A DNA stretch of 64,000 nt from an uncultured Rickettsiales bacterium (GCA_964512225.1 CAZEKB010000030.1:2374-66373), one strand, 5' to 3'. Counted from the stretch's first letter, positions 4,698 to 55,022 are shown. Notes: a model not told the origin generated them from the letters alone. Numbers and translations are program-made.

Positions 4698-5476
4698 TAG
4701 GCGAGCGCCGCCAGGAGCGCGCTCAGGGTCGCGTCTTCGTCGGCGCGCGACGTGTCCACGTGCACCTCGGCGGTGCGATACAGCGGCTCCCGGGCGCCGA
4801 GGATCGCGCGCAGCTCCTGCATGGCGTCGGCGCGCCCCGCGACCGGCCGGCGGTCCCCCTGGGCGAGGACCCGGTTCATGTGGTCCGCGGGGCTCGCCTG
4901 CAGCCACACCGACCGACACCGCGATCGCACGACGTCGAAGGCGGGCGCGTTCTGGACCACGCCCCCCGAGAGCGCGACCACCAGGGGACGCCCCTCGTCC
5001 AGGAGGCGGCGCAGCGACGCGGCCTCGAGGCGACGGTAGTAGGCCTCGCCGTGCAGGGAGAAGATCTCGCCCACGGACATCCCCGCGACGTCCTCGATCG
5101 CCTCGTCCAGCTCCACGAAGTCGACGCCCAGAGCCCCCGCGAGCCGTCGCCCGAGCGTGGTCTTGCCCGCCCCGCGCAAGCCGAGCAGGGCGACGACCTC
5201 CGGCGGCGGTTCGACGACCCGGCCCGGCCGCTCCTCTACGAGCCGGGCCACGTCCACGTCCAGGGCCCGAGCCACCGAGGCGAGACGTCCGATGGAGATG
5301 TTCCCCCGTCCCGCCTCGAGCTCCGATACGAACCGGGGGCTCAGGCCCGACTCCGCGGCGAGCCGGCGAGCCGTCCACTGCAGCTGCATCCGTCGCTCAC
5401 GCACCCGGCGGGCGACCCGCGCAAGGATCGCGACGGCCTCGGGCCGGGGGGCCCTCCCGCGGGGTTCGGGGGTCAT
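4697..5476 (-). CDS. boxR: BoxR/BzdR-type transcriptional regulator: N-terminal XRE-family HTH plus a C-terminal shikimate-kinase-like effector domain.
   Basis: C-terminal 259 aa of ORF 4697..6901. HTH segment: QLQWTARRLAAESGLSPRFVSELEAGRGNISIGRLASVARALDV. Shikimate-kinase Walker A segment: LLGLRGAGKTTLGRRLAGALGVDFVELDE...LSGG. It is divergent from boxC across an 81-bp AT-richer gap. The domain architecture matches the benzoyl-CoA-responsive regulators BzdR/BoxR. Confidence 0.8.
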   Translation of the reverse strand: MTPEPRGRAPRPEAVAILARVARRVRERRMQLQWTARRLAAESGLSPRFVSELEAGRGNISIGRLASVARALDVDVARLVEERPGRVVEPPPEVVALLGLRGAGKTTLGRRLAGALGVDFVELDEAIEDVAGMSVGEIFSLHGEAYYRRLEAASLRRLLDEGRPLVVALSGGVVQNAPAFDVVRSRCRSVWLQASPADHMNRVLAQGDRRPVAGRADAMQELRAILGAREPLYRTAEVHVDTSRADEDATLSALLAALA

Positions 5477-5495
5477 GGGTGCGCAGTATATTGCT

Positions 5496-5509
5496 ATGTC
5501 GATCGTCAT
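5496..5509. promoter_or_regulatory. Candidate operator: 14-bp near-palindrome ATGtCGATCGtCAT in the boxR-boxC divergent intergenic region.
   Basis: Read directly; 12 of 14 positions are self-complementary around the CGATCG core. The surrounding 5477..5557 is locally AT-richer (gcagtatattgctatg...gaagcattatcttgcatctc) and also contains TGCA/GCAT half-sites. Coordinates are +/-1. Confidence 0.3.
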
Positions 5510-5557
5510 GGAAGCATTATCTTGCATCTCCCGAGATCGCTGCGTATCTTCCGCGCC

Positions 5558-7213
<1,656 letters not shown>

Positions 7214-7276
7214 CCCCGCAACGACCGTTACCTACAACACTCACGCGGCTCACGCCGCGACGAATCGGAGCCCTCG

Positions 7277-8719
<1,443 letters not shown>

Positions 8720-8723
8720 TTCG

Positions 8724-10277
<1,554 letters not shown>

Positions 10278-11859: not shown

Positions 11860-12702
11860 GTGGCCCTCAAGCTGCTCCCGCTCCTCTGCGCCGCCTTCGT
11901 GCTGCTCGGCTGGACCCTGCCGTGGGGGTGGGACGCCGGGTGGATGCAGCCCTGGCACGACGCGCTCTCGGCCTGGCTGGGGGCGGCGCCGTCTCCCGAG
12001 ACGAGGCGCCTGGAGGCCCTGTTGTTCGGCATCCTCGGCGGCTCCATCGCCGGGAAGTGGGTGGCTGCGGGCTGGATCGCGGAGATGCTGCGACGCACTC
12101 GGGACCGGGCCCTCTGGCGACTCTCCTGGGCCGGCCTGCTGGCCTGGTTCGCCCTGGACTCGGGCGTGTCCGCGGCCCTCGGCGCGGGCTTCAACGTCAC
12201 CCTCGTGAACCTCCTGCCGCTGGTCGTCGTCGGCGGGTGCCTCCTCGCCGCGGGCCCGGGCACCGTCGCGCCGAAGACGCCCCCCCGAGCACGCCCCGAC
12301 GCGGTGGTCTCGGCGATCCTCGTCTTCTTCGCGGGCACGGGCCTCCTGTTCGCCCTCGGTCCTCGCAGCCTGCCTCTCCTGCTGTGGAACACGGCCATGG
12401 AGAGCCACCTGCTCGCCGGCGTGCTCACGGTCGAGGCCGAGCGCGTCCAGCGCCTCCTGGGAGGAGCGATCGGGGGGACGGTCTTCGCGCACTTCGTCCT
12501 CCTGCTGGGCGCTCATCGCGCGGCGCCCGAGGCCCCGTGGGTCCGGGCCGCGGTGGCCACGTCGATCGCCGCGTGGGTGATCCCCGATGCGCTCGCGTCC
12601 ATCGCTCACGGGGCCTGGTACAACCTCGTCTACATCGACGCCCCCTGCGTCGTCGGCGTCGCGGTCGCCGTCGCCTTGCTGCGGCGTCGGGCGGTGATGT
12701 AG
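11860..12702 (+). CDS. Hypothetical Trp-rich polytopic membrane protein.
   Basis: ORF 11860..12702 reads LLPLLCAAFVLLGWTLPWGWDAGWMQPW, with several hydrophobic helices. No known domain. It overlaps the end of the convergent GNAT-MTase gene. Confidence 0.45.
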   Translation: MALKLLPLLCAAFVLLGWTLPWGWDAGWMQPWHDALSAWLGAAPSPETRRLEALLFGILGGSIAGKWVAAGWIAEMLRRTRDRALWRLSWAGLLAWFALDSGVSAALGAGFNVTLVNLLPLVVVGGCLLAAGPGTVAPKTPPRARPDAVVSAILVFFAGTGLLFALGPRSLPLLLWNTAMESHLLAGVLTVEAERVQRLLGGAIGGTVFAHFVLLLGAHRAAPEAPWVRAAVATSIAAWVIPDALASIAHGAWYNLVYIDAPCVVGVAVAVALLRRRAVM

Positions 12703-13838
12703 GCCCGACGGCTCGGGTACTCCACGTCTTCGCCGTACGGCTCGCGCTCGCGTCGCTGGATCGCCGTCCACCCCGCGGCCCCGAGCGCGGCCTCGACGGC
12801 CTCCGGATCGTGGAAGACGAAGTCCACGAGGACCTCGTGCCCCCACCACTCGTCCACCGGCACCACGCGCCCCCCGACGTGGAAAGAGATCGCCACCTCG
12901 CCCCCGGGTCTCACGACCTCGGCGAGGCACCGGAAGACGCCCTCGAGCCGGGCGGCGGGGAGGTTCACGATCGCGTACATCAGGAGCACGGCGCTCCAGA
13001 GACGTCCATCGCTCACGCGGTCCGGAGCCGCGAAGTCCCCGAGCACGAACGGCAGGTCCGGGTGAGCCGCCCGCGCCTGCTCGAGCATGCCCCCGGAGCG
13101 GTCCGCCCCGACCACCTCCGCGACGCCCGCGTCCGCGAGGAACCGGGTCACGTGGCCCGGACCGCAGCCCAGGTCGAGCACCGGGCCGTCGCGGTGGCGA
13201 CTCGCGAGGGCGGCCAGCCACCCCCGATCGAACGGCTTCCCGTCGAGCTCCGAGGCCAGCTTCTCCGCGTAGGCGTCGGCCACCAAGTCGTAGGCCGCGG
13301 CCGCGCCCACGGCACGGGGGGACCGCCGGATCCACGAAGGGTGCATGCGCCCGGTAGGAGGGTAGAGGTCCTCTCCGGCGCGGGCGAAGGCGAGCTTCTC
13401 CAGCAGGCGCGCGGAGGCCGCGTTGTCGGGGTGATGACCCGCGAACACCGCGGTCGCGCCCAGGGGCCCGAACGCGAAGGCCAGGACGTCGCGGGCCGCC
13501 TCCGACGCGTAGCCTCGCCCCCACTCCGCCCTCAGGACGTGCACGCCCAGCTCCCACGGTGCGTCGTCTCGGCCCGACGGCCTCAGCCCCGCGCACCCCA
13601 CGACCCCTCCGTCTTCGGTGCGCTCGACCACCCAGTACTGAACGCCGTGCTCGTGGAGGCACCGCAGCTCGTCGTCGAGCCGGGCGCGCACGGCGTCGTC
13701 GTCCAGCCGGTCGCGGGAGTCGATGAACCGGATCACCTCGGGGTCGCCCCACAGCGCTCGGGCCACGGGGAGGTCCTCGACGGTCCAGGGCCGGAACCGC
13801 AGGCGGTGGGTCCCCCGCGGCAGGGACCCGTCCTTCAT
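12630..13838 (-). CDS. Fusion protein: N-terminal GNAT acetyltransferase plus C-terminal class I SAM-dependent methyltransferase.
   Basis: GNAT part: FRPWTVEDLP...WVVERTEDGGVVGCAGL...EWGRGYASEAARDVLAFAF. MTase motif I: VLDLGCGPGHVTRFLA. Its start codon at 13838 abuts the stop of the upstream radical-SAM gene at 13839. Confidence 0.8.
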   Translation of the reverse strand: MKDGSLPRGTHRLRFRPWTVEDLPVARALWGDPEVIRFIDSRDRLDDDAVRARLDDELRCLHEHGVQYWVVERTEDGGVVGCAGLRPSGRDDAPWELGVHVLRAEWGRGYASEAARDVLAFAFGPLGATAVFAGHHPDNAASARLLEKLAFARAGEDLYPPTGRMHPSWIRRSPRAVGAAAAYDLVADAYAEKLASELDGKPFDRGWLAALASRHRDGPVLDLGCGPGHVTRFLADAGVAEVVGADRSGGMLEQARAAHPDLPFVLGDFAAPDRVSDGRLWSAVLLMYAIVNLPAARLEGVFRCLAEVVRPGGEVAISFHVGGRVVPVDEWWGHEVLVDFVFHDPEAVEAALGAAGWTAIQRREREPYGEDVEYPSRRAYITARRRSKATATATPTTQGASM

Positions 13839-14849
13839 CTACAGGTGCTCGAAGTTGCAGTTCAGCATGTTGCAGGTCCGGGGGCAGTTGTGTGCCTCCC
13901 AGCGTCGGCGCTTGCTCTTCATGCTGTTCCACATCCAGGGGATCGGCTGCTTCAGGACGTGCCCCACGGGGGGCAGCCAGAAGCAGAGGAGCAGGTTTCC
14001 GTAGGGGTCGAGCGAGATGTCCGAGTGGCCCGCGTTGCACGGTAGACCGTTGCTCACGCTGGGCGATCGGAAGTACCTCTTCATTTCCTTCAGCTGACCG
14101 ACGGAGTTGCACACATGTCCATCGGCCTCCTTGATGGAGATCAGGTAGTCCAAGGCGTCGTCGAGCGCGGGAAGGTCTTCCTCACGCGGGAATAGCGGAG
14201 ACTTCACGAACCACTGGGGGTCGTACGTGCGACCGAAGTTGTTGAAGAGCGGCTGATAGACCACCTGATAGCCCCGCTCCAGGGTCCAGTCGGCCATCTG
14301 CTTCATCTCGGAGATCGATCGACGATTGATGATCATCGCGATCACCACGCGAGGCTTCTCGACCATGTCCACGAGGTCCAGCGTCCGCATCACCTTGTCG
14401 TATGTCCCGGCCTCACCCCTCACGTAGTCGTGAGTGGCCGCCGTCGACCCGTCGAGGCTCACGTAGAGGATGTCCAGACCGGCCCCCGCGAGCTGGTCGA
14501 TCTTCTTCGCATTGAAGAGCGTCGCGTTGGTATTGGACGTGACCGTAAAGCCGAGATCCGTCCCGTAGCGGATCAGCTCGATGAGGTCCTTCCTCAGGAA
14601 CGGCTCGCCGCCCGCGAAGTTCAGGCCCACGGGCCCGGCCCAGTCCGCCACCTGCTTGAAGATGCCCTTCCACTCGTTGGTCGTGAGCTCCTCGCCCGGC
14701 TTGATGCGCCAGATGTCGCACATGCGGCAGGGCAGGCAGCAGCGGTCCGTGATGCTCACGTGCATCTGCGTCGGCAGGCCGGGCGCCGCCCGGAGCTTCA
14801 GGGTCTCCGCCGCCGTGGAGGCGAACCTCGCCACGTCGTTCATGAACAT
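13839..14849 (-). CDS. Radical-SAM enzyme with C-terminal SPASM/twitch-type Cys cluster (336 aa).
   Basis: CxxxCxxC motif in ITDRCCLPCRMCD. The C-terminus reads CNSVGQ...CNAGHSDISLDPYGNLLLCFW...NCPRTCNMLNC. Local GC is about 57-60% by hand count. Confidence 0.85.
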   Translation of the reverse strand: MFMNDVARFASTAAETLKLRAAPGLPTQMHVSITDRCCLPCRMCDIWRIKPGEELTTNEWKGIFKQVADWAGPVGLNFAGGEPFLRKDLIELIRYGTDLGFTVTSNTNATLFNAKKIDQLAGAGLDILYVSLDGSTAATHDYVRGEAGTYDKVMRTLDLVDMVEKPRVVIAMIINRRSISEMKQMADWTLERGYQVVYQPLFNNFGRTYDPQWFVKSPLFPREEDLPALDDALDYLISIKEADGHVCNSVGQLKEMKRYFRSPSVSNGLPCNAGHSDISLDPYGNLLLCFWLPPVGHVLKQPIPWMWNSMKSKRRRWEAHNCPRTCNMLNCNFEHL

Positions 14850-14852
14850 GCT

Positions 14853-16115
14853 CTACGTCCCCTCCTCACGCGACCCGGTGCGGTCCTCGTAGACCTGGTC
14901 CCGGCCGGGGCCTCGGTAGACCTCCGGGTAGGGTCGCGCCCCGAAGGGTAGGCCCGGCACCGCGGGGATGTCGTCGCCGTCGAGGCCGCGCCCGGCGAGG
15001 AACTGGTCCACCTCGTCGCGCGTGATCCCCGAGTAGTTGACCGACGACGGGATGAAGCAGGTGCGACAGAAGTCCAGCTCCGAGTAGTCGCCGCGGGCCG
15101 TGAGCTGACGACGACGGTTGAGCACCGGCGAGTCGAGCCAGACCTTCGAGAAGGACGCGTCCGCCAGGGAGCCGACCACGAGGTGGTAGGTGTTGTCCCG
15201 GGTGCAGACGGTCACGCGCCCGTCCGACGCGATGGTGGGCGACTTGAAGAACCCCGAGCACGTCGTGAGCAGGGTGCGGGGGACCTCCGTCCCGACGCGA
15301 CGCTCGGCGTCCGGGTCGATGGGCGACCGGAGCCCCAGGGACGTCATCAGGTCGACGTACACCCGGTTCTGGCGGTCCTGCTCCTCGGGCGTGGGGCAGT
15401 CGAGGCTCTTGAGGAAGATGTAGTTCTCGGGACCGTGAGCGGGCACGTGGAAGCCGGTCGTCTCGATCGGCAGGCCCGCGTCCTCGTACGCCCTCACCCA
15501 GAAGTCGACGAACTCCGGAGCCTCCGCCGCGTTGACGTCCGAGACGATGAACTGCATCGCCAGCTTCGGCCGGCTGGCCCGGGCCGCCCCCTTGAGGCGG
15601 ACCATGCGCAGCGCGTTGCGGGTGGACTTCTCCATGGCATCCAGGCCCTTGATGACGTGGAACGTCTCGGGCCGGATCGCGTCCAGGGTCAGGTGCCAGA
15701 CCTGAGGGACCGAGCGGTCGTTGAGGACCGACCGAGCGATGTGCTCGCTCAGCGGGAAGGTATTGGTATGGACCTCGATCTTCCCGAAGATCTCTCCGTC
15801 GCCGCTGTGCTCCAGGACCGTGGCGTAGATCTCGGTGAACCGGGGGTGGGACAGCGGCTCGCCGAGCCAGAAGAGGATCAGGGCGTCGTACGTGAGCCCG
15901 GCGGCCGACAGATCCTGCATCAGCTCACGGACCATGCCCACCGGCATGTGCTCGTAGACCGCATAGTGCGGGTGCCCGTCGTCGGCCTCGCTCACGGCGC
16001 AGTGCCCGCACTTCAGCGGACACCGGTTCGTGACCTCGAGGACGAGGTAGCTCCCGGGCAGGTTGAGCTTGGCCACGTCGAGCCGTCGGCCGGCCGCTTC
16101 GAAGTGGGCGGTCAA
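14853..16115 (-). CDS. Radical-SAM/SPASM-domain enzyme (420 aa).
   Basis: CxxxCxxC motif in VTNRCPLKCGHCAV. C-terminal Cys-rich region: TTCSGFF...VTVCTRDNTYHLVVGS...DFCRTCFIPSS. Confidence 0.85.
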   Translation of the reverse strand: MTAHFEAAGRRLDVAKLNLPGSYLVLEVTNRCPLKCGHCAVSEADDGHPHYAVYEHMPVGMVRELMQDLSAAGLTYDALILFWLGEPLSHPRFTEIYATVLEHSGDGEIFGKIEVHTNTFPLSEHIARSVLNDRSVPQVWHLTLDAIRPETFHVIKGLDAMEKSTRNALRMVRLKGAARASRPKLAMQFIVSDVNAAEAPEFVDFWVRAYEDAGLPIETTGFHVPAHGPENYIFLKSLDCPTPEEQDRQNRVYVDLMTSLGLRSPIDPDAERRVGTEVPRTLLTTCSGFFKSPTIASDGRVTVCTRDNTYHLVVGSLADASFSKVWLDSPVLNRRRQLTARGDYSELDFCRTCFIPSSVNYSGITRDEVDQFLAGRGLDGDDIPAVPGLPFGARPYPEVYRGPGRDQVYEDRTGSREEGT

Positions 16116-18703
16116 CTCGCCTCCTCGACGCGTGAGCGCTCGACGTCTCGCTGCTCACGCGCTCTGCGCGCCTTCGCCGCGGCCCGCCGCGCGGCCTTCG
16201 CCTGCTCGCCGCGCGCCTGCCCCGACTCCTTGATGAGGGCCATCTCGGCGTCGATCGGCTCGTCGGCCGGCTTCACCACGAACGGCAGGCCCGTCGCCGA
16301 CTGGAACTCGTACAGGCTGTGGTTGAAGCACTGGTCCACGCAGCCTTCCCTGAAGATCTGCTCCCGCATCGCCTGGGCGCGCTCGCTGTAGAAGAGCTGG
16401 TCCAGCGGCTCGTCGAGCGCGGACCCGACCTGGAGCCCCTTCTGGTCCCACACGCAGCACGGCACGAGCTTGCCCTCGTGGTTCACCCCGAACTGCTCGA
16501 TCAGCCCCAGGCAGCGGTAGTGGTCGCGGCGACCGTCCATGTACTCCACGCCGTAGCGGTAGTAGTCCATCCGCTGCCGCACCGTCGGGCTGGTGGCCGC
16601 GATGTGCTCGATGGCGGCCTGGTAGGTCGCCCGCTCGCTCTCGGAGCGGATGTACAGGTGGGGGTAGCCGTTGACGGGCCAGAAGTCGAACGCGATGTCG
16701 CGTTCCCGCGCCAGGTCGTAGACCTTCGCCAGGTCGCCCACGTTTCGATTCGTCACGACGAAGTAGATGTTCAGGTGGATGTCCGTGCGGGCCTGGATCG
16801 CTTCGATCGCGCCCATCGTCTCGGACCAGCAGCCGTCCACGCCGCGGAGCCGATTGTGGGTGTCCTCGAACCCGTCGATCGAGATGCTCAGGCTGCTCAC
16901 GCGGGACTCACGGAGGCGGTCGATGTCCTTGAGCAGCAGCGTGCCGTTGGTCGTGATGTTGACGCCCAGGTCGAGGTTCCGGGCGAACTCGATGATCTCG
17001 TAGATGCGCGGATGCACGAACGGCTCGCCGCCCGTGATCACGAGGGTCTTCACCCCCGCCGCGGGGGCCCGGGAGATGATCGTGATCGCCGACTCGAACG
17101 GCATCATGTCGGTGTAGTGCCACAGGTCGCAGAAGTCGCACCGCAGGTTGCAGCGCTTGTTCAGCAACAGGATCATCGTGCGGGGCTTCTGCCACGTGAT
17201 CTCGCCGGGGATGTGCCGGGTGATCTCGGCCTCCGTGAGTTCGCGACTCACGGCGTCCTCGGCCCAGTGCACGACCTCCGGCTCGGCCCCCTTGAGCAGG
17301 GCGCTCGCGTTGCCCTTGCGCTCCTTGCGCAGGACCTTCAGGCGCGACTTCCGTCGCTCGTCCGCCAGGGAGCTGCCGAGCACCTCCAGCTCGCGCGGGT
17401 CGCGGTTGACGGAGTGGGCGAGCAGCTCGTTGTAGTCGCGGCCGCGGACCTCCGCGCGGCGCTCGTAGAGCTCGATGTACGCCGCGGTCACGGCGTGCCA
17501 GTCGTAGGCGCGCACGAACGTCTGCGCGTGGTGCCCCATCGCGAGGGCCCGGCCCGGCTCCTCCACGAGCGAAGCGACGCGATCGATCATGCCGTCCCAG
17601 TCCCCGTCGTCCACGAGGTGGATGTCGCGCCCGTCGTCCAGGAGGAGGCCCTCGGCGCCCTTGCGGGTGCTCACGACCGCCTTGCCCGCGGCGAAGTACT
17701 CCAGGATCTTCAGGCGGGTGCCACCACCGTCCAGCAGCGGCACGGCGCACAGGTCCGCCGCGGCGATGTGCGTGGCGAGATCGTCGACGCAGCCCGCGTA
17801 GACGAGGTCTTCGTGGACGTACCGGTCCCGGGGCGGGTTCATCCCCGCGGCGAGGACCGTCACGTTCAGCCCCCGCGCCTTCATCCGCGGGAGCAGCTCC
17901 TCGGCGAAGATCCGACAGGCGACCGTGTTGGGCCAGTAGTTCAGCGTGCCGTGGAAGAAGATCAGCGTCTTCTCCGGGGCGATGCCGTACCGCTCCCGCA
18001 CCCCCGCCCCGGTCTTGCGCGAGAAGGTCGCGACGTCGACGCCGTGCGGGATGATCGTGATCTCGTCCGCCTCGAAGTCGTCCTCCAGCATCAACTCACG
18101 GTCCTCACGGCTCACGACGATGACCTCGTCCATGAGGTGGGACAGCTGGAGCTCGATGCCCCGCACGCGCTCCAGGACGTCGGGGTGGAGGTCGATCGTG
18201 TCGGCCATGCGCTTCCACTCGACGTTGTGCTGCACGAGCGAGCACCGGCGGCGGAGCAGACGCGCCGCGACCCAGCACGGCAGGGCGAAGCCGGGGAACT
18301 CCGCCTGGAACCAGTCCGTGCGGTGCTTGCGCCCGACCCACACCGTGCGCAGCCAGAAGTCGGGGTCGACGACGGGGCGGTAGAGGATGTGTTCGTCCCG
18401 GGGGTAGCCGAGCGTATCGAGCAGCGCCTCCACGGCCTGCCAGTAGTCGGGCGCCCCGAGCAGCTCGAGCAGGCGCGAGCGCCGGGTCCCCACCCGGGTC
18501 GCCGCGACGAGGCGGGGGGGGTATTCCAGGAGCTCGTGCCGCCCGTCGACGTACCGGTGGTAGCGGAGGCGGTCCCCGGTCACGACCGTCACGTCGACGC
18601 CGTGCCGGGAGAGACCCTCCGCCGTGCGCACGATCTTCACGGCGGCGCCGTGCACGGCGGGGAGGAGATCTTGGCGGCTGACGATCGTGACGTGCATGCG
18701 CAT
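16112..18703 (-). CDS. Fusion of a GT4-family glycosyltransferase (N-terminal ~420 aa) with a radical-SAM/SPASM domain (C-terminal ~440 aa).
   Basis: The real start MRMHVTIVSRQD (ATG at 18703) lies inside track ORF 16112..18811. GT-B C-terminal signature: LCAVPLLDGGGTRLKILEYFAAGKAVVST. Radical-SAM motif: LLNKRCNLRCDFCD. SPASM region: LVPCCVWDQ...EGCVDQC. Confidence 0.85.
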   Translation of the reverse strand: MRMHVTIVSRQDLLPAVHGAAVKIVRTAEGLSRHGVDVTVVTGDRLRYHRYVDGRHELLEYPPRLVAATRVGTRRSRLLELLGAPDYWQAVEALLDTLGYPRDEHILYRPVVDPDFWLRTVWVGRKHRTDWFQAEFPGFALPCWVAARLLRRRCSLVQHNVEWKRMADTIDLHPDVLERVRGIELQLSHLMDEVIVVSREDRELMLEDDFEADEITIIPHGVDVATFSRKTGAGVRERYGIAPEKTLIFFHGTLNYWPNTVACRIFAEELLPRMKARGLNVTVLAAGMNPPRDRYVHEDLVYAGCVDDLATHIAAADLCAVPLLDGGGTRLKILEYFAAGKAVVSTRKGAEGLLLDDGRDIHLVDDGDWDGMIDRVASLVEEPGRALAMGHHAQTFVRAYDWHAVTAAYIELYERRAEVRGRDYNELLAHSVNRDPRELEVLGSSLADERRKSRLKVLRKERKGNASALLKGAEPEVVHWAEDAVSRELTEAEITRHIPGEITWQKPRTMILLLNKRCNLRCDFCDLWHYTDMMPFESAITIISRAPAAGVKTLVITGGEPFVHPRIYEIIEFARNLDLGVNITTNGTLLLKDIDRLRESRVSSLSISIDGFEDTHNRLRGVDGCWSETMGAIEAIQARTDIHLNIYFVVTNRNVGDLAKVYDLARERDIAFDFWPVNGYPHLYIRSESERATYQAAIEHIAATSPTVRQRMDYYRYGVEYMDGRRDHYRCLGLIEQFGVNHEGKLVPCCVWDQKGLQVGSALDEPLDQLFYSERAQAMREQIFREGCVDQCFNHSLYEFQSATGLPFVVKPADEPIDAEMALIKESGQARGEQAKAARRAAAKARRAREQRDVERSRVEEAS

Positions 18704-18811
18704 TCGGCGCGCCCGGGGAGGCGCGTTGGGTCGCAGTATTGCCGCTGACTTCGGGATCGTCGACCGCGGGCGCCCCCGCACGCGCGCGACTGGTATACCG
18801 CGCCCGATCAT

Positions 18812-21731: not shown

Positions 21732-22343
21732 CTACTTGGCGTACTTCACGCTGCAGCCGTAGGGCTTCTTGAAGTCCTCGGCGACGGTCTCCCCCGCCGC
21801 GAGGGCGGCGAGGGCGGCGTCGACGTAGTTGACGAGGGCCCCTCCCTCGACCTTGCCCAGCGGGGCGTTGTCGAGCGCGCCCGCGTAGCGAATGGTCCCG
21901 CCCGCGTCGATCACGAACATCTGCGGCGTGGTCCTGGCTCCGTACGCTCGGCCCACGTCGCCCGCCTCGTCGATGAGGACGAGGTGGTCCATCGACCAGT
22001 CCGCCGCTGCCTTCTTGTTCGCCTCCACCCCGTGGCCCTGCTTGCCGGGCGCGCCGGAGTTGATCGCGATCCACACGACGTCGTCCTTGTACCGCGCGGC
22101 CTGGTCGGACAGGGGGCCGTCGCCGTGCGCGTGCTTCACGAACGGGCAGCCCGGGTTGAACCACTCCAGGACCACCGTCTTGCCCCGGAACGCGCTCAGG
22201 GAGTGGGTCGCCCCGTCGAGATCGGGGAGGGTGAAGTCGGGCGCGGCCGAGCCGGGTCCCGCGGCGTCGTCGGCGAGGGCGGGGGAGAGGGCGACGAGGC
22301 CGAGGGCGGCGAGCGCGAGGACGAAGGTGCGGCGGGCGATCAT
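21732..22343 (-). CDS. Secreted thioredoxin-fold protein (TlpA/redoxin-like), 203 aa.
   Basis: Signal peptide MIARRTFVLALAALGLVALSPALA. Redoxin pattern FRGKTVVLEWFNPGCPFV, with a second Cys near the C-terminus. Confidence 0.8.
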   Translation of the reverse strand: MIARRTFVLALAALGLVALSPALADDAAGPGSAAPDFTLPDLDGATHSLSAFRGKTVVLEWFNPGCPFVKHAHGDGPLSDQAARYKDDVVWIAINSGAPGKQGHGVEANKKAAADWSMDHLVLIDEAGDVGRAYGARTTPQMFVIDAGGTIRYAGALDNAPLGKVEGGALVNYVDAALAALAAGETVAEDFKKPYGCSVKYAK

Positions 22344-23227
22344 GGGGAGTCTCCTGGAGGGAGGGGCACGGGGGTGCAGGAGGGGGAGAGCGTGTACGAC
22401 TCGTCGTCGAGTGTGAGGATCCCCCAAGGACCGGCTTGGATTCCCCGATCGAACGGGGGGGCCACCCGCAGCTCGACGTGGTGGCTCGAGGGGTTCTCCA
22501 CCACCGAGCAGCCGTCGGTGCGGTCGTGGCGCAGCCCCACGGTGGGCGACGTGAGCTTCACCGCGCCGCCCGCCTCCGAGAACCGCGCTCCGGGCACGAA
22601 GCCGACGGTCGCCTCCCGACCCCACAGGTGGAGGATCGCCCCCAGCTCGGTGCACACCCACCGGCTCGTCTCGGGCAGCGGCGACGGCAGGGCGGCCCTC
22701 CACTCGGCGAACCGTGCTTCTCGCCCGGCGACGACCGGCGCGGAGTCCGCGACCGCTCCCACCACCACGGTCGAGGCGCGCTCCGCGTCGCCCACGACGC
22801 AGGACTCCTTGCAGACCAACCAGCGCGTCGCCACGCGGAGCTCGGCGGGCCCGGGATCGGCGCCCGCGGTCAGGTCCACGAGCAGGGCGACCGAGCCCTC
22901 CCAGCCGTAGGTCACGAGGCCCGCGGCGTCGACGAAGCGGTGGGGCGCGGGGTACTGCACGGGGTCCACTGTCCAGCCGTCGGGCGCGGACAACGCGACG
23001 GTCGTGGCGAGGCCGGAGTCCCCCGGGTTCTCCCAGTAGATGTGCCACCCCGGCTCCACGACGTAATGGACCGCGACCGTGAGCGTGCCCCCGGGCTCCA
23101 CCACCCCCGCCGACGGCACGACGGTCACGCGGACCTCCGGGTCCCGCTCCTCCGCGGCCGCGATCGAGGCGATCAGGCCCGCCGCGATCAACGCCGGCGC
23201 GATCAGGGCGAGCCGCAGCTGAACCAC
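22340..23227 (-). CDS. DsbD-N (alpha-domain)-like periplasmic thiol:disulfide interchange domain protein.
   Basis: Tail of ORF 22340..23473, starting VVQLRLALIAPALIAAGLIAS and carrying YWENPGDSG. The start is an inferred GTG overlapping the upstream cytochrome gene by about 25 nt; the start is uncertain. Confidence 0.6.
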   Translation of the reverse strand: MVQLRLALIAPALIAAGLIASIAAAEERDPEVRVTVVPSAGVVEPGGTLTVAVHYVVEPGWHIYWENPGDSGLATTVALSAPDGWTVDPVQYPAPHRFVDAAGLVTYGWEGSVALLVDLTAGADPGPAELRVATRWLVCKESCVVGDAERASTVVVGAVADSAPVVAGREARFAEWRAALPSPLPETSRWVCTELGAILHLWGREATVGFVPGARFSEAGGAVKLTSPTVGLRHDRTDGCSVVENPSSHHVELRVAPPFDRGIQAGPWGILTLDDESYTLSPSCTPVPLPPGDSP

Positions 23228-23891
23228 TCCCACAGGACGTAGGCCTCTTCGTCGGACATGTCGGTGTCCTCGGGCATCTCCCCGGCGTAGATCCGACCCC
23301 AGATGAAGGCGTCGTCCCCGAAGCCGCGGAGATCCTCGGCGGTGTCCCAGTCGATGCCGTCGGGGGCGCCGTTGCGTTCGTCGCCCGCGCGGTCGACGCT
23401 GTGACAGCGCGTGCAGTTGTCGGCGAGCACGGCCTCCACGTCCGCCGAGGTGACGGTCGACCCGTCGGGGCACTCGCCGATCTCCTCGGGGACCTCGAGC
23501 GGCGGGTCCGAGACGCAGTTGAGCCAGTCCAGCAGCTTGTCGAGCTCGCCGGTGTCGGGCAGTCGGCCGAGGGGGGGCATCTCGAAGGAGGAGACCCGGG
23601 TCCAGGTGAGGCTGGGCGACGTCCTGGCGGCCGCGAACGTGTCGTAGTTCCGCGTCGCGGGGGCGCCGTGCCGGTCGTCGTTGTCCGAGGCGTGGCAGTA
23701 GAAGCAGTACTCCTCGAAGAACGGCTTCATCTCGAGCTCGTAGTAGTCCTCGCCGGCGGCGGTCGCGTCGCGGCAGTCCCGGAAGCCGCCCAGTCTTCGG
23801 GCAGGTTCGGCTCGCAGCCCTGCGCGGGGAACAGGAGCGCAGGCACGACGACGGCGGCGGCGAGGGTCCACAGGGAGGTGCGCGTGCCCAT
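23203..23891 (-). CDS. Diheme c-type cytochrome with an apparent frameshift between the signal peptide and the heme-binding domain.
   Basis: Frame A (ATG at 23891) gives MGTRTSLWTLAAAVVVPALLFPAQGCEPNLPEDWAASGTAAT. Frame B (23203..23871) gives ...DATAAGEDYYELEMKPFFEEYCFYCH ... CTRCHS, i.e. two CxxCH motifs. A 1-nt offset inside the GC run gcgacgcgaccgccgccggcgag (about 23770-23795) joins them as ...GTAATAAGEDYY.... Confidence 0.6.
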
Positions 23892-24583
23892 CAGAACCTC
23901 GAGATGATGACGGCGGCCGGGATCATGAGGAACCCCGTCGTGAAGGCCGACAGGGTGTGGGCGACGACCAGCCCGTCCCAGTCCTTGGCCGCGAACGCGT
24001 TGGCCATGAGCGCGCCGGTGGCGATGGTCAGCCCCATCGAGATGCCGTGGGCGATGGACAGCGCGATGTGCTTGTCGCGCGTGTTGTCCCACTGGGAGAG
24101 ACCCTTGTCCGCGACGCGCAGGGTGCCCCCGGGCCCCGGCGCCAGCCAGGCCATCACGCCCGCGGCGTAGTAGGTCGAGATCGAGGTCCCCGCGAGGACG
24201 CGGTGGAGGGCGAGGCTCGGCTCCAGCGAGGCGCGCTTGGGCGAGCCCGACTGCAGCGACACCCGGTTGATCATCCCCACGGTCTCGGCCGCGAAGAGCG
24301 TGGACAGCGAGGTCCACGCGAGCACCTGGTGGGCGGTGAGCATGTTGCGGCGCACCTCGAGGCGGTCGAGAGTCTCCCGCAGGGCCTCGGGGGACGAGTC
24401 CCCGCCCGGCTCGGCGGGGTTGTCGGCGGTGGCGGCGTTGCCCGGGGACAGGTCGGCGAGCGAGGCCGCGACGTTCAGGTCGACGTCGAGGTGGAAGCCG
24501 TCGGCCGCCTCGGCCCGGGGGGCGGCGAGGAGGAACAGGGCGACGAGCAGGGACAGTCGGCCCGGGAGGAGTCGGTTCGTCAC
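23891..24583 (-). CDS. Hypothetical integral membrane protein (230 aa).
   Basis: Tail of ORF 23891..25663 from a GTG start at 24583, with the Shine-Dalgarno sequence GGAGG 7 nt upstream. It has a signal/anchor (LLPGRLSLLVALFLLAAPRAEA) and C-terminal transmembrane helices (LSIAHGISMGLTIATGALMANAF..., TTGFLMIPAAVIISRF). Its TGA stop overlaps the ATG of the downstream cytochrome (ATGA). Confidence 0.6.
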   Translation of the reverse strand: MTNRLLPGRLSLLVALFLLAAPRAEAADGFHLDVDLNVAASLADLSPGNAATADNPAEPGGDSSPEALRETLDRLEVRRNMLTAHQVLAWTSLSTLFAAETVGMINRVSLQSGSPKRASLEPSLALHRVLAGTSISTYYAAGVMAWLAPGPGGTLRVADKGLSQWDNTRDKHIALSIAHGISMGLTIATGALMANAFAAKDWDGLVVAHTLSAFTTGFLMIPAAVIISRF

Positions 24584-25680
24584 TTCGCCACCTCCGCTTG
24601 CAGGAACGCGAGCAGGTCGTCGAGCTGCTGGTCGCTCAGGCGCTCCTTCGTATAGAAGGGCATGTAGGCCATGGGGACGCCGTAGGGGCGGGTCCCGTGC
24701 CGGACCGTCTCGTAGAAGCTCCGACCGTCCTCGGCGGTACGGAAGCGGAGCAGCTCCCGGTAGGACGCCTTGTTCGCCCCCAGCCGGTAGGTGCCGGGTC
24801 CTCCCCGGTCGTGGCATACGAGGCAGCCCTCCTTGAAGACGAACTCGCCCCGGGCCGCGTCGCCGGCCCCCGCGTACCCGGCCTCCCGATCGGCGGGCGG
24901 CTCGCCCGTGTGGGCGGGCGACTTCCGGAGGTAGTGCGACTTGACCGCCGCCACGGCTGCGGCTCGGTGGTCGGTGTTCTCCAGCGCGGCGGACACGATC
25001 GTGCGGGCCTCGTCGCTCAGGGCGAGGTCCCCCACCGTCATCTGCAGCGTCCACAGGTACGTGAGGACGGCGTCCATCTCCCAGTCCGCGAGCGTGCGAC
25101 CCTGGGAGCACTCCGCGCTGCAGAGCTGAATCGCCCAGCGGAGGCTCTTGTTCGCGGACTTCACGAGGCTGCCGTACTTCTTGATGTAGTCGTCGTTGAA
25201 CCAGGCCTCGCGGTTGACGATCCCCCACAGGGTCGTGGCCGGCAGGAGCTTGAGCCCGTGCTCGAGCGCGTACGACTGGCGGGCCTCCGGGTCGCTGACC
25301 GCGAGCGACGGGTCCTCGCGCACGACGTTGTGACAGTCGGTGCAGTCGAAGGCCGCCGAGACCCGCGGGCCGGCCTTGCCGAACGGGTCCTCGCCGCGTC
25401 CGCTCAGGACGATGGCCTCGCCCTGGGCCGCCAGCTGCGGGGCGGGCGGCATCCAGTGCTCGGCGGGCGGGTCCCCCAGCGCGCGGAGCAGGTCGCCGAC
25501 CGGGGTCTGCGGGGCGAGCAGGGACGGCGCCTCGGGCGGCTCGGGGGGGGCCTCCGGCTCGGCCGCGGGCGCGTCGGCGGGGTCGGTGGGGGGCTCGGCT
25601 TCGTCGGAGCTCGCGTCGGCTCGAGACCCCAGGACCGCGACCAACAACACGCACCCCAACCACGAAGCGATCCGAGCCAT
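24580..25680 (-). CDS. Secreted diheme cytochrome c (366 aa).
   Basis: The start MARIASWLGCVLLVAVLGSRADA lies inside ORF 24580..25734. Two CxxCH motifs (CTDCHN, CLVCHD). Shine-Dalgarno-like GGGAG upstream. Confidence 0.8.
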   Translation of the reverse strand: MARIASWLGCVLLVAVLGSRADASSDEAEPPTDPADAPAAEPEAPPEPPEAPSLLAPQTPVGDLLRALGDPPAEHWMPPAPQLAAQGEAIVLSGRGEDPFGKAGPRVSAAFDCTDCHNVVREDPSLAVSDPEARQSYALEHGLKLLPATTLWGIVNREAWFNDDYIKKYGSLVKSANKSLRWAIQLCSAECSQGRTLADWEMDAVLTYLWTLQMTVGDLALSDEARTIVSAALENTDHRAAAVAAVKSHYLRKSPAHTGEPPADREAGYAGAGDAARGEFVFKEGCLVCHDRGGPGTYRLGANKASYRELLRFRTAEDGRSFYETVRHGTRPYGVPMAYMPFYTKERLSDQQLDDLLAFLQAEVAK

Positions 25681-35686: not shown

Positions 35687-35696
35687 GCTCGCGGGC

Positions 35697-46440: not shown

Positions 46441-46499
46441 CGCGCCATCCTACGGGGCGTGCCCGGTCGGCCGGTGCCCGCCGCCGCTAAACTGCGCCG

Positions 46500-53886: not shown

Positions 53887-54207
53887 TCAGGTCTCGAGGC
53901 GGTAGATGAAGGCGCAGGGGAGCTGCACGGTGCGCTTGCCGCCGCCGGGGGCGGGGGCGTCGACGAGCAGCGGGCGCCAGGCCATCGCCCAGGAGCCGTC
54001 GGCGCGCTCCTTGATGGCGGCGAGGTCGGCCTCGTCGTCGCCGGTGAGGTCGTGGCGGAACCAGTCGATCCGGCAGGTGAAGCACGTGCGGACGTCCGTG
54101 TCATCGGGGACGGTGTTGTCGGCGCCGCACCCGGGGCAGTGCACGTGCGGGATGCCCCAGTGGCGCGCGCGGGCGATGAAGCGGCGGGCGATGCGTCGAG
54201 GCCTCAC
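53887..54207 (-). CDS. Small Cys4 zinc-ribbon protein (about 106 aa), translationally coupled to the upstream methyltransferase.
   Basis: The GTG start overlaps the methyltransferase TGA (GTGA). A strong Shine-Dalgarno sequence GAGGAGG lies 7 nt upstream. Cys motifs HCPGCG...(x17)...CFTC. Protein-like tail. Moderate support only. Confidence 0.45.
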   Translation of the reverse strand: MRPRRIARRFIARARHWGIPHVHCPGCGADNTVPDDTDVRTCFTCRIDWFRHDLTGDDEADLAAIKERADGSWAMAWRPLLVDAPAPGGGKRTVQLPCAFIYRLET

Positions 54208-55022
54208 GGGCTCACCTCCTCGCCGGACGGGGCCGCGACGCCCTTCTCGTTCCATCGACGTCGGGAGACGGCGGCCTTCTGGTCGGCGGTGCGCTGCAGG
54301 TTCTTCTCCTCGTGGCGACGCTTGCGGGCGGCCTCGAGGTCCCACCCCAGCGACAGCGCGATGAAGCGGCTGCCCACGGGCAGGCTCGAGGCGAGCTGCA
54401 CGCTGCGGAAGCCCTCGGGCAGGCGGGCTCGGACGAAGTCGCCGAGATCCGAGTCCAGGTCGATCGAGATGACCATGCGGCCGCGCTCTCCGAGCCACCG
54501 CGGGAGCGCCTCGAGGACCGGCGCCACCCCCGCGAAGCCCCGGCCCGCGGCCTGCCCCGGACGCGCCGGGTCGGCGGGGTCCACCGGTCGCTGGGGAGCG
54601 TTCCACCAGATCTGGTCGAAGGACTCGTCCCCCACCACGTCGACCACGTCCCCCACGCGGAACTCGACCCGGTCCTCGAGGCACCCCGCCGCGACGTTGG
54701 CCCGCGCCGCGTCCACGGCCGCGGGGTCCACGTCCACCGCCACCACGTCGGCGCCCCGCGAGGCGGCGACGAGCGCGCCCAGGCCGCAGCCGGTGCCGAG
54801 GTCGAGGATGCGATGTCCCGGCGCCACCATGGGCCCCACCGTCCGGTAGAGGAAGCTCGAGCTCCCGTCGGCCTTCGGGTGGTGTACGCCCGGGGGGACT
54901 TCGAGGGGGTGACCGAGCACCTCCAGCCGGTCGTGGCGGCGCAGCCGTCGACCCCATAGAGCGCGGGTGAGACCGTGCCTCAGCGCGGCCCTGACGCGGC
55001 CTTGGAGGAGGGAGGCGAGCAC
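54204..55022 (-). CDS. Class I SAM-dependent methyltransferase (small-domain, RsmC/PrmC-like), 272 aa.
   Basis: ORF 54204..55022. Motif I ILDLGTGCGLGALVAA, preceded by LEVPPGVHHP. Post-motif IWWNAPQRP at the position of the usual NPPY-type motif. Confidence 0.75.
   Translation of the reverse strand: MLASLLQGRVRAALRHGLTRALWGRRLRRHDRLEVLGHPLEVPPGVHHPKADGSSSFLYRTVGPMVAPGHRILDLGTGCGLGALVAASRGADVVAVDVDPAAVDAARANVAAGCLEDRVEFRVGDVVDVVGDESFDQIWWNAPQRPVDPADPARPGQAAGRGFAGVAPVLEALPRWLGERGRMVISIDLDSDLGDFVRARLPEGFRSVQLASSLPVGSRFIALSLGWDLEAARKRRHEEKNLQRTADQKAAVSRRRWNEKGVAAPSGEEVSP

What the first reader, a model, noticed from the sequence alone, without database searches (positions are those of the whole stretch)
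12630..18703. Lower-GC operon of three radical-SAM/SPASM enzymes (one fused to a GT4 glycosyltransferase) plus a GNAT-methyltransferase fusion, with no visible precursor peptide
Four tightly packed minus-strand genes with stop/start abutting or overlapping (18703->16112, 16115->14853, 14849->13839, 13838->12630): a GT4 plus radical-SAM/SPASM fusion, two standalone radical-SAM/SPASM proteins (CxxxCxxC plus C-terminal Cys clusters), and a GNAT plus SAM-MTase fusion. Hand-counted GC is about 57-62% against more than 70% around it. Multiple SPASM maturases usually imply a RiPP or cofactor pathway, but I find no small precursor ORF in the 108-bp upstream gap or between genes. A glycosyltransferase to radical-SAM fusion is unusual. 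This could be a novel glycosylated or cross-linked peptide pathway with a distal or very small precursor, or a lipid/polysaccharide tailoring pathway; the neighbours are an SDR, a fatty-acid-hydroxylase-family protein and a membrane protein.
Basis: partly seen in the sequence, partly recalled or inferred. Interest (0 to 1): 0.7.

Follow-up and report, generated by a model that had tools for sequence, protein, structure and literature searches.

The report
Glycosyltransferase-linked radical-SAM sugar-tailoring cassette
Three of the four genes form a conserved but uncharacterised cassette, found only in uncultured bacteria, that most likely builds and radically remodels a sugar on a cell-surface glycan or glycolipid rather than maturing a peptide.

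Summary
The four abutting minus-strand genes exist exactly as described, and their domain content is confirmed. The GC claim is overstated. The region is 69.0% GC against 71.4% for the rest, third-position GC is 91-96%, and only gene B is low (62.8%) because of its amino-acid composition.

The conserved unit is three genes: D (GT4 + radical SAM), C and B. The GNAT-methyltransferase A is a lineage-specific passenger.

None of the three radical-SAM domains has the canonical 7-Cys SPASM motif. None has room for a peptide-recognition domain, and none reaches any curated NCBIfam cut-off. There is no intergenic space for a precursor, and no small ORF is conserved across related loci.

The closest relatives of D's radical-SAM domain are fused to other glycosyltransferase families. 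Together with orthologue-like copies of B, they lie directly next to Wzm/Wzt polysaccharide exporters in very different organisms. Other related loci carry an NDP-sugar dehydratase, a DegT aminotransferase, PilZ, extra GT4s and B12 radical-SAM genes.

The best reading is an orphan glycan or glycoconjugate tailoring cassette. The RiPP reading is not supported. The reaction and product remain unknown. No characterised homologue or paper was found.

The parts
16112..18703 (-). Gene D, 863 aa. It comprises an N-terminal GT4 (GT-B) glycosyltransferase (aa 1-~420, nt ~17444-18703) and a variable helical linker (aa ~421-505). The radical-SAM core has C518xxxC522xxC525 and G558GEP, followed by an abbreviated SPASM/twitch region (C731, C749, C750, C788, C792; aa 506-815, nt 16259-17188). 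A basic C-terminal helix spans aa 828-862.
   Evidence: Pfam. Invariant residues across 53 homologues. The AF2 model has pLDDT 92.4 and pTM 0.89. By Foldseek the GT half matches MshA/BshA (TM 0.74-0.81) and the radical-SAM half matches BlsE (TM 0.70).
14853..16115 (-). Gene C, 420 aa, with a TTG start overlapping the D stop by 4 nt. It is a divergent radical-SAM enzyme with C32xxxC36xxC39 and four invariant C-terminal cysteines (C286, C304, C350, C353).
13839..14849 (-). Gene B, 336 aa. It is a radical-SAM enzyme paralogous to D's radical-SAM domain (27% identity). It carries the cluster motif CCLPCRMC followed by Cx17C...Cx3Cx4C at the C-terminus.
   Evidence: Pfam. Alignment. The best solved relative is BlsE, E 8e-18. 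It is 33-37% identical over its full length to the stand-alone radical-SAM genes in Wzt-linked loci L095-L098.
12630..13838 (-). Gene A, 402 aa, a GNAT (RimJ/RimL-like) fused to a class I SAM methyltransferase. It abuts B and is probably co-transcribed here, but it is a lineage-specific passenger and not part of the conserved cassette.
   Evidence: Pfam. A is absent from all other D-C-B loci. The 87%-identical relative L093 has an integrase at this position. The only close homologue, P0251 (61%), sits in an unrelated context.
18704..18809 (.). The 106-bp divergent spacer between D and the ABC-F gene. It is the only place for the cassette's promoter, and it holds no ORF of 15 aa or more.
   Evidence: No sigma-70 consensus match was found, which is uninformative for this high-GC organism.
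53893..55022 (-). The ancestral neighbours of the cassette, now 35 kb away: an MTS-type methyltransferase (54204-55022) and a ~105-aa CxxC...CxxC zinc-ribbon protein (53893-54207). In relatives this pair lies immediately upstream of D-C-B. A functional link is unproven.
   Evidence: tblastn and gene calls.

Best explanation
D-C-B is a conserved, uncharacterised cassette for glycan or glycoconjugate assembly and radical tailoring.

Shown:
- D carries an intact retaining-type GT4 glycosyltransferase. It is fused to an intact radical-SAM domain with one abbreviated auxiliary-cluster region.
- B is a paralogue of that radical-SAM domain.
- C is a third, more divergent radical-SAM enzyme.
- All three keep CxxxCxxC and 4-5 conserved C-terminal cysteines; D and B also keep GGEP.

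Inferred:
- The GT4 domain transfers a sugar from a nucleotide sugar onto a glycan, a lipid-linked acceptor or a small-molecule acceptor.
- The fused radical-SAM domain abstracts a hydrogen from that sugar or from the nucleotide-sugar donor.
- B and C carry out further radical steps, such as epimerisation, dehydration/deoxygenation, decarboxylation, oxidation or ring contraction. The result would be an unusual sugar unit on a cell-surface polymer or glycolipid.

Gene A (GNAT-methyltransferase) is a locally acquired passenger. At most it adds an acetyl or methyl decoration in this lineage.
For: 1. Independent fusions of the same domain to different GT families. The nearest relatives of D's radical-SAM domain (36-38% identity, 237-246 bits, against 27% to its own paralogue B) are fused to GT2 (P0382, P0439, P0469) or to another GT1/4 (P0397).
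2. Those GT2 fusions lie directly after Wzm/Wzt (ABC_tran + Wzt_C), the ABC-transporter-dependent polysaccharide exporter. This occurs in two unrelated lineages (34% and 52% GC). They are followed by stand-alone radical-SAM genes that match B over its full length at 33-37% identity (177-211 bits), plus a B12 radical-SAM gene and a GT4.
3. In L015/L034/L036 the cluster holds an extra GT4, an NDP-sugar epimerase/dehydratase, a DegT/EryC1 sugar aminotransferase, a PilZ protein and a HAD hydrolase. L005 has a DeoC aldolase and a GT2. L024-L027 and L033 have extra GT4s and B12 radical-SAM genes; L027 also has a GH4.
4. The GT half matches MshA, BshA and PimA by sequence and fold. The best solved relatives of B and of D's radical-SAM half include the sugar-nucleoside enzyme BlsE.
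5. D-C-B keeps together while its surroundings change. It lies beside MTase/Zn-ribbon/T2SS genes in L007, L011-L013 and L094, and beside ABC-F in the window and L093.
6. All RiPP hallmarks are absent.
Against: - No member has been characterised, and no paper was found.
- The window has no Wzm/Wzt or other glycan exporter within 64 kb. It has no nucleotide-sugar gene next to the cassette.
- C has no counterpart in the Wzt-linked loci.
- The acceptor, the donor and the radical chemistry are all inferred.
Confidence: 0.62

Rival explanations
1. Glycolipid head-group pathway, a narrower version of the main reading. The GT4 domain glycosylates a membrane lipid, and the radical-SAM enzymes rearrange the sugar. 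A carbocyclic, ether-linked head group would be one outcome. This would parallel calditol synthase Cds in Sulfolobus or HpnI/HpnJ in hopanoid cyclitol ethers.
For: - The GT4 half resembles the lipid or small-acceptor enzymes PimA, PimB and MshA.
- Lipase_3 follows B in L007. A GDSL lipase lies upstream of a GT-only homologue in L048. A fatty-acid desaturase lies near D in L004.
- Solitary D sits in housekeeping-like contexts, as an envelope-lipid gene might.
- The precedent of a GT followed by a radical-SAM ring contraction is reviewed in PMC13459092.
Against: - D, C and B have no predicted membrane segments.
- Hits to the lipid radical-SAM models Tes and HpnH are far below cut-off.
- The lipid-related neighbours are not conserved across loci.
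- The direct linkage of close relatives is to Wzm/Wzt polysaccharide exporters.
Confidence: 0.17
2. RiPP or protein maturation. The radical-SAM enzymes would cross-link or otherwise modify a ribosomal peptide or a secreted protein encoded elsewhere, and the GT4 domain would glycosylate it.
For: - The radical-SAM/SPASM-type fold is shared with SuiB, ChlB, SkfB and anSME.
- In L091/L092 a ~150-aa lipoprotein gene lies between the E-F and C-B radical-SAM pairs.
- Cys-rich MopE-repeat proteins lie nearby in L005 and L092.
- A conserved 105-aa zinc-ribbon protein precedes D in several relatives.
Against: - No small ORF is conserved across loci.
- The window has no intergenic room.
- There is no RRE/PqqD domain, leader peptidase or exporter.
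- The 7-Cys SPASM motif is absent.
- All peptide-maturase NCBIfam models score far below cut-off.
- The lipoprotein has no homologue in the window. The zinc-ribbon gene is 35 kb from the cassette here.
- Relatives are embedded in polysaccharide export loci.
Confidence: 0.1
3. Cofactor or tetrapyrrole-type radical-SAM chemistry (NirJ/AhbC/AhbD, PqqE or MoaA-like), or a viperin-like antiviral nucleotide-modifying system.
For: The top NCBIfam hits for B and D are PqqE, AhbD and NirJ. MoaA and viperin also score, and PADLOC pVip models hit the core.
Against: - All scores are 4-7 times below the curated cut-offs and cover only the common radical-SAM core.
- No heme d1, PQQ or Moco partner genes are adjacent.
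- pVip matches cover only profile positions 4-174 of 257, and the context is not a defence island.
- The GT fusion is unexplained by this reading.
Confidence: 0.04

Closest known systems
Sugar-modifying twitch/SPASM-class radical-SAM enzymes of natural-product pathways: BlsE (cytosylglucuronate decarboxylase), DesII, BtrN
   Same: They share the radical-SAM core plus a short C-terminal Cys-rich auxiliary-cluster region. BlsE is the best or near-best solved relative of B and of D's radical-SAM half. DesII and BtrN appear among C's structural matches. From established knowledge, these enzymes act on sugars or nucleotide sugars and work alongside GT4 enzymes.
   Different: Identity is only 15-22%. 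The NCBIfam BlsE model scores 71 bits against a 400-bit cut-off. Here the radical-SAM domain is covalently fused to the GT. The context is not an antibiotic gene cluster. Three, and in some lineages five, radical-SAM units act together.
Head-group tailoring by a GT followed by a radical-SAM enzyme: calditol synthase Cds (Sulfolobus) and HpnI/HpnJ (hopanoid cyclitol ether)
   Same: The logic of 'glycosylate, then rearrange the sugar by a 5'-deoxyadenosyl radical' is shared (PMC13459092).
   Different: No sequence relationship was tested or seen. HpnJ is a B12-domain radical-SAM enzyme. Its model appeared only for the B12 radical-SAM gene of L097, at 88 bits against a 578-bit cut-off. The substrate here is unknown, and relatives are linked to polysaccharide exporters, not to lipid genes.
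Multi-domain enzymes encoded beside Wzm/Wzt in ABC-transporter-dependent O-polysaccharide pathways, such as WbdD and WbbB (recalled from knowledge, not tested here)
   Same: The relatives P0382 and P0439 are large GT-plus-modifying-domain proteins encoded right after a Wzt that has a C-terminal carbohydrate-binding domain. D has long helices between and after its domains.
   Different: The modifying domains here are radical-SAM enzymes, not kinase/methyltransferase or Kdo-transferase modules. The window's own cassette has no Wzm/Wzt nearby. A chain-terminating role is pure speculation.
RiPP radical-SAM/SPASM maturases (SuiB, CteB, SkfB, PqqE, MftC; mycofactocin also has a GT, MftF)
   Same: The overall radical-SAM plus C-terminal Fe-S domain fold is shared. 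A GT co-occurs with a radical-SAM enzyme, as in mycofactocin.
   Different: There is no precursor, no RRE and no 7-Cys motif, and all models score below cut-off. MftF is a GT2, not a GT4. The radical-SAM domain here is fused to the GT itself.

Membership tests
RiPP radical-SAM/SPASM maturase system | A precursor peptide gene adjacent to, or conserved with, the maturase | tested here: not met
   No ORF of 15 aa or more lies in any gap from 8.5 kb on one side to 9 kb on the other; the largest gap is 106 bp. No non-shadow small ORF is conserved across about 45 loci, apart from a 105-aa zinc-ribbon protein that is 35 kb away in the window.
RiPP radical-SAM/SPASM maturase system | An RRE/PqqD-like leader-binding domain, fused or stand-alone | tested here: not met
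   There is no PqqD or RRE Pfam hit at E<=0.01. The cluster motif begins at aa 32 in C and aa 38 in B, leaving no N-terminal domain. The D linker is variable and is absent in the 750-aa clade.
RiPP radical-SAM/SPASM maturase system | A score above the curated cut-off for a peptide-maturase NCBIfam model | tested here: not met
   StsB scores 85 against a cut-off of 625, WgkB 65 against 650, MftC 66 against 265, PqqE 94 against 381, SkfB 51-57 against 300 and FxsB 18 against 370.
SPASM domain (two auxiliary 4Fe-4S clusters) | The seven-cysteine motif CX9-15GX4C...CX2CX5CX3C...C | tested here: not met
   Only CX17C...CX2-3C(X4C) is conserved: C286/C304/C350/C353 in C, C731/C749/C750/C788/C792 in D, and five in B. 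Pfam SPASM scores sit barely above the gathering score, at 22.1, 31.5 and 25.8 against 21.5.
Twitch-domain radical-SAM enzymes (NF033640) | A score above the subfamily cut-off, with a single auxiliary cluster | tested here: inconclusive
   The HMM scores 53 (B) and 66 (D) against a cut-off of 170. The cysteine count fits one auxiliary cluster, but cluster number needs spectroscopy.
Radical-SAM superfamily | CxxxCxxC, a GGE SAM-binding motif and a partial TIM barrel | tested here: met
   PF04055 scores 83.5 (D), 32.6 (C) and 76.7 (B) against a cut-off of 29.5. The Cys triads are invariant in D and C, and GGEP is invariant in D. B keeps its Cys triad and GGEP across related loci. AF2 models score pLDDT 92.
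GT4 (GT-B, retaining) glycosyltransferase | Two Rossmann domains and a C-terminal donor-binding motif ending in the conserved Glu | tested here: met
   Glyco_trans_1_4 scores 64.6 against 27 and Glyco_transf_4 scores 39.2 against 28.5. G326-G-G-T-R330, K332 and E335 are invariant. Foldseek matches MshA and BshA at TM 0.74-0.81. Catalytic activity was not tested.
Heme d1 / alternative heme radical-SAM enzymes (NirJ, AhbC, AhbD) | An equivalog score, with partner genes present | tested here: not met
   These models score 72-94 bits against cut-offs of 500-650. No nir or ahb genes lie in the flanks.
Lipid radical-SAM enzymes (Tes/GDGT-MAS, HpnH) | An equivalog score | tested here: not met
   Tes scores 49 (B) and 20 (C) against 450. 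HpnH scores 54 (D) against 225.
Prokaryotic viperin defence (pVip) | A full-length match and a defence-island context | tested here: not met
   Matches cover only profile positions 4-174 of 257. The NCBIfam viperin model scores 54 against 180.
ABC-transporter-dependent (Wzm/Wzt) polysaccharide locus | Wzm and Wzt encoded with the GT genes | tested here: not met
   The window has no Wzm or Wzt homologue within 64 kb. The feature is met in the relatives' loci L095-L098, and a Wzm-like gene lies 7-9 kb from D in L028 and L038. Export genes may lie outside the window.

The most novel reading that the evidence does not exclude
GT-fused radical-SAM enzymes and their stand-alone partners may form a previously unrecognised, widespread enzyme class. 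They comprise D with B and C here, and the GT2-radical-SAM fusions in Wzm/Wzt loci elsewhere. The class would perform radical C-H chemistry on cell-surface glycans. One possible product is an unusual terminal or carbocyclic/deoxy sugar that the Wzt carbohydrate-binding domain reads. Another is a new glycolipid head group. This would extend radical-SAM sugar tailoring from antibiotic pathways into envelope polysaccharide biosynthesis of uncultured Myxococcota-like and other bacteria.
Probability: 0.35. Interest if true: 0.7.

Novelty: new variant of a known kind. Interest (0 to 1): 0.55.

Why it matters
Radical-SAM tailoring of sugars is known from antibiotic pathways and from two lipid head groups. 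It is not known as a recurrent, GT-fused module in cell-envelope glycan loci.

If the inference holds, this family marks an unexplored type of glycan chemistry. Its members are so far seen only in metagenome-assembled genomes, which here include marine and freshwater Myxococcota-like bacteria, and it has relatives in remote phyla. It also gives glycobiologists a compact three-gene target to express.

There is a practical caution for genome mining as well. Several 'radical SAM/SPASM' genes in a row do not imply a RiPP. Cysteine-motif counting, a check for an RRE and comparative context separate the two cases cheaply.

Tried and rejected
- Horizontal transfer signalled by low GC: rejected. Third-position GC is native, and the dip comes from amino-acid composition.
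- Functional link to the SDR, FA hydroxylase and membrane-protein neighbours: rejected. None is syntenic with D-C-B elsewhere. They adjoin a BoxC/BoxB/aldehyde-dehydrogenase benzoyl-CoA cluster.
- ABC-F as a self-resistance gene: rejected. It is EttA/Uup-like and below every resistance cut-off.
- GNAT-methyltransferase as a pathway member: rejected.
- The 54-aa ORF at 23727-23891 as a precursor: rejected. It lies inside a cytochrome c/DsbD/AhpC operon and is not called in the 87% relative.
- The zinc-ribbon 105-aa protein as a precursor: unlikely. It is 35 kb away here and has no family hit.
- Defence-system membership: rejected.
- Rfam and tRNA scans of the window found nothing. The promoter/terminator scan was uninformative.
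- Six literature searches found no description of a GT-radical-SAM fusion of this kind.
- The AFDB fold library was unavailable.
- Taxon names in the records ('Rickettsiales', 'Enterobacterales' MAGs) look unreliable. The Myxococcota-like assignment of the window is an inference from its relatives' record titles and from MopE-repeat proteins in the window.


Full report
**1. What is in the sequence**

- D, 16112-18703, 863 aa.
- C, 14853-16115, 420 aa, with a TTG start.
- B, 13839-14849, 336 aa.
- A, 12630-13838, 402 aa.

The junctions are a 4-nt overlap, a 3-nt gap and a 0-nt gap. The same sequence occurs on at least 17 public marine metagenome contigs, with identical gene calls.

Pfam confirms the domain content. 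D is a GT4 glycosyltransferase followed by Radical_SAM and a marginal SPASM hit. C and B are Radical_SAM plus marginal SPASM. A is a RimJ/RimL-type GNAT plus a class I methyltransferase. None of D, C, B or A has a predicted membrane segment.

**2. The GC claim**

Exact GC is 69.0% for the region and 71.4% for the rest of the window. Only B (62.8%) is clearly low, and A is above average at 74.3%.

Same-sized windows across the 64 kb have mean 71.2% and SD 1.2%. The stretch at 56-62 kb is just as low. Third-position GC is 0.91-0.96 in all four genes, as in their neighbours. The dip lies in codon positions 1 and 2 and reflects more K, N, I, F and Y residues. The same holds for other strongly conserved proteins such as Lon and BoxB. 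There is no sign of foreign origin.

**3. Family assignment**

No NCBIfam model comes near its curated cut-off. The best hits (PqqE, AhbD, NirJ, MoaA, StsB, BlsE, Tes, viperin) score 50-94 bits against cut-offs of 170-650, and they cover only the shared radical-SAM core.

Alignments of 53 D homologues and 38 C homologues, and of B with its paralogues, give the following:
- The CxxxCxxC triad is intact in all three, and GGEP is conserved in D and B.
- Only four or five C-terminal cysteines are conserved, in the pattern CX17C...CX2-3C(X4C).
- The CX2CX5CX3C core of a canonical seven-cysteine SPASM domain is absent.

These are therefore abbreviated, twitch-like domains, probably with one auxiliary cluster. 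That last point is an inference and needs spectroscopy.

The cluster motif begins at residue 32 in C and residue 38 in B. That leaves no room for an N-terminal peptide-recognition (RRE) domain. The D linker (aa ~421-505) is variable and is missing in the 750-aa clade.

**4. Structure**

AlphaFold models are confident: C has pLDDT 92.2, and D has pLDDT 92.4 with pTM 0.89.

For D, the GT half matches MshA, BshA, PglA and PimA (TM 0.7-0.8). The radical-SAM half matches BlsE best (TM 0.70), then SkfB and anSME. Sequence searches of the PDB agree.

**5. What is conserved around it**

D belongs to a large family. It has 337 relatives among the scored candidates in the 5.8-billion-protein set. About 40 of the 80 best genome loci hold relatives covering D's full length. 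All are metagenome-assembled genomes labelled Myxococcota, 'Deltaproteobacteria' or Proteobacteria.

tblastn and all-against-all ORF clustering over about 45 loci show the following:
- D-C-B is the conserved unit in the clade with 56% or more D identity, and also in L020 (42% D identity).
- A is found nowhere else.
- The BoxC/BoxB/ALDH genes, FA hydroxylase, SDR, the 280-aa membrane protein and the PDH/CM gene are not syntenic with the cassette outside its closest relative.

The 87%-identical relative L093 has the same ABC-F flank, but a phage-type integrase follows B where the window has A. A's only close homologue (61%) lies in an unrelated context.

In L007, L011-L013 and L094 the cassette follows an MTase and a ~110-aa zinc-ribbon gene, next to T2SS E/F genes. 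The window keeps that MTase/zinc-ribbon/T2SS block at 53.9-58.6 kb, but the cassette has moved 35 kb away. The three genes therefore travel as a unit.

**6. Variants of the system**

In many lineages a ~750-aa D (43% identity) stands alone, next to RNase H, GT2, RNase HII and NQR genes. The C-B pair then lies elsewhere (seen in other MAGs of these lineages), together with a divergently transcribed paralogous pair, E (364 aa) and F (256 aa). L005, L015, L034 and L036 carry E and F next to D.

Further associated genes:
- In L015, L034 and L036 the extended cluster adds a GT4, a PilZ protein, an NDP-sugar epimerase/dehydratase, a DegT/EryC1 aminotransferase and a HAD hydrolase.
- L024, L026, L027 and L033 add radical-SAM/SPASM genes, a B12 radical-SAM gene and further GT4 proteins.

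**7. The most informative result**

I ran an exhaustive HMMER search of D against 1.84 billion cluster representatives. It found 171 proteins at E<=1e-30. D's radical-SAM domain recurs in other architectures:
- GT2-radical-SAM-radical-SAM: P0382 (1251 aa) and P0469 (1493 aa).
- GT2-radical-SAM: P0439 (982 aa).
- GT1/4-radical-SAM: P0397.
- Tandem radical-SAM proteins: P0390 and P0421.

P0382 is encoded directly after Wzm and Wzt (with a Wzt_C carbohydrate-binding domain). It is followed by an unknown 354-aa gene and a 317-aa radical-SAM/SPASM gene.

P0439 follows Wzt. After it come a 331-aa radical-SAM gene, a B12 radical-SAM gene, a 318-aa radical-SAM gene and a GT4.

These loci have 34% and 52% GC, so they come from organisms far from the 71%-GC window. 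Even so:
- D's radical-SAM domain is 36-38% identical (237-246 bits) to the GT2-fused domain.
- B is 33-37% identical over its full length (177-211 bits) to the stand-alone radical-SAM genes.
- D's radical-SAM domain and B are only 27% identical to each other.

Three observations stand out. The same radical-SAM clade is fused independently to different GT families. A B-type partner is preserved across these loci. The relatives sit inside ABC-transporter-dependent polysaccharide loci. Together these are the strongest evidence that the system acts on glycans. None of these relatives reaches an NCBIfam cut-off either.

**8. Precursor search**

From 8.5 kb on one side of the cassette to 9 kb on the other, the largest non-coding gap is 106 bp, with no ORF of 15 aa or more. 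Every conserved small ORF across loci is a shadow ORF inside a conserved gene, apart from the zinc-ribbon protein. That protein is 35 kb away in the window and has no family hit.

No RRE, leader peptidase or peptide exporter is present. The RiPP reading is therefore not supported. I leave it about 10% because the fold class is shared with RiPP maturases. Lipoprotein and Cys-rich MopE-repeat genes also sit near some radical-SAM pairs.

**9. Mechanism proposed**

Shown:
- An intact GT4 with invariant donor-site residues.
- Three intact radical-SAM active-site motifs, each with one probable auxiliary cluster.
- Tight translational coupling of D, C and B.

Inferred:
- The GT4 domain installs a sugar.
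- The fused domain, B and C then carry out radical transformations on that sugar or on its nucleotide-sugar precursor.
- The product is an unusual residue of a surface polysaccharide or glycolipid.

The chemistry could be epimerisation, deoxygenation, decarboxylation, oxidation or ring contraction. Precedents are BlsE, DesII, BtrN and AprD4 (from my own knowledge) and Cds and HpnJ (PMC13459092). Which of these applies cannot be decided from sequence.

**10. Comparison and novelty**

The parts belong to known superfamilies. The logic resembles sugar-tailoring radical-SAM enzymes and GT-then-radical-SAM head-group pathways. However, no defining feature of any named family is met beyond the superfamily level, and no paper describing this fusion was found. 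I file it as a new variant of a known kind: a GT-fused, multi-radical-SAM glycan-tailoring cassette.

Interest is moderate, at 0.55. The finding is not the RiPP pathway hoped for. It is a widespread, uncharacterised and experimentally tractable module that occurs only in uncultured bacteria.

Noticed in passing
window 4145-10277 (+): This is an aerobic benzoyl-CoA (box) pathway cluster. BoxC is fused to a ~480-aa N-terminal extension (TIGR03222, 745 bits against a cut-off of 712). BoxB scores 749 bits (TIGR03225). A 3,4-dehydroadipyl-CoA semialdehyde dehydrogenase scores 675 bits (NF008868). The N-terminal half of the BoxC fusion has no Pfam hit.
   Followed up: partly
window 53893-54207 (-) and 54204-55022 (-): A conserved ~105-aa CxxC...CxxC zinc-ribbon protein has no Pfam, NCBIfam or PADLOC family. 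It is preceded by an MTS-type methyltransferase. In relatives L007, L011-L013 and L094 the pair lies immediately upstream of D-C-B, but here it is 35 kb away. Function is unknown.
   Followed up: partly
L093 13952-15331 (relative with 87% D identity): A phage-type integrase follows gene B at exactly the position where the window has the GNAT-methyltransferase. The junction downstream of B therefore appears to be a rearrangement or insertion point.
   Followed up: no
L091 2552-4420 and 8001-10096; L092; L005 5399-7629: A second, paralogous radical-SAM pair exists: E (~364 aa) and F (~256 aa, sometimes with a separate 117-aa SPASM-like ORF). It is transcribed divergently from C-B or D. In L091 and L092 a ~150-aa lipoprotein gene lies between the two pairs. 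The pair is absent from the 64-kb window.
   Followed up: partly
window 35511-38036 (+) and 46491-47675 (+); L005 2295-4121; L092 3224-5437: Cys-rich MopE-type ('putative metal-binding motif') repeat proteins occur in the window. They also lie next to the E/F radical-SAM pairs in two unrelated loci. Whether this is coincidence or a link was not resolved.
   Followed up: no
L016 12319-13080 and 17 other loci: In lineages where D stands alone, a ~250-aa protein follows D, within 1-70 bp in about 7 loci and 0.8-4.5 kb away in most of the others. It has a C-terminal RNase H domain and an unknown ~115-aa N-terminal half. A GT2 and RNase HII lie a few kb further on.
   Followed up: no
window 21732-25680 (-): This operon encodes a cytochrome c, two unknown proteins (one a 54-aa ORF), a cbb3-type cytochrome-like protein, a DsbD_N protein and an AhpC/TSA redoxin. 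It is conserved in the 87% relative and unrelated to the finding.
   Followed up: no
L095 8137-9201: A 354-aa protein with no Pfam or NCBIfam hit sits between the GT2-radical-SAM-radical-SAM fusion and the B-like radical-SAM gene in the Wzm/Wzt locus. It could be the functional counterpart of C, but tblastn detects no similarity.
   Followed up: partly
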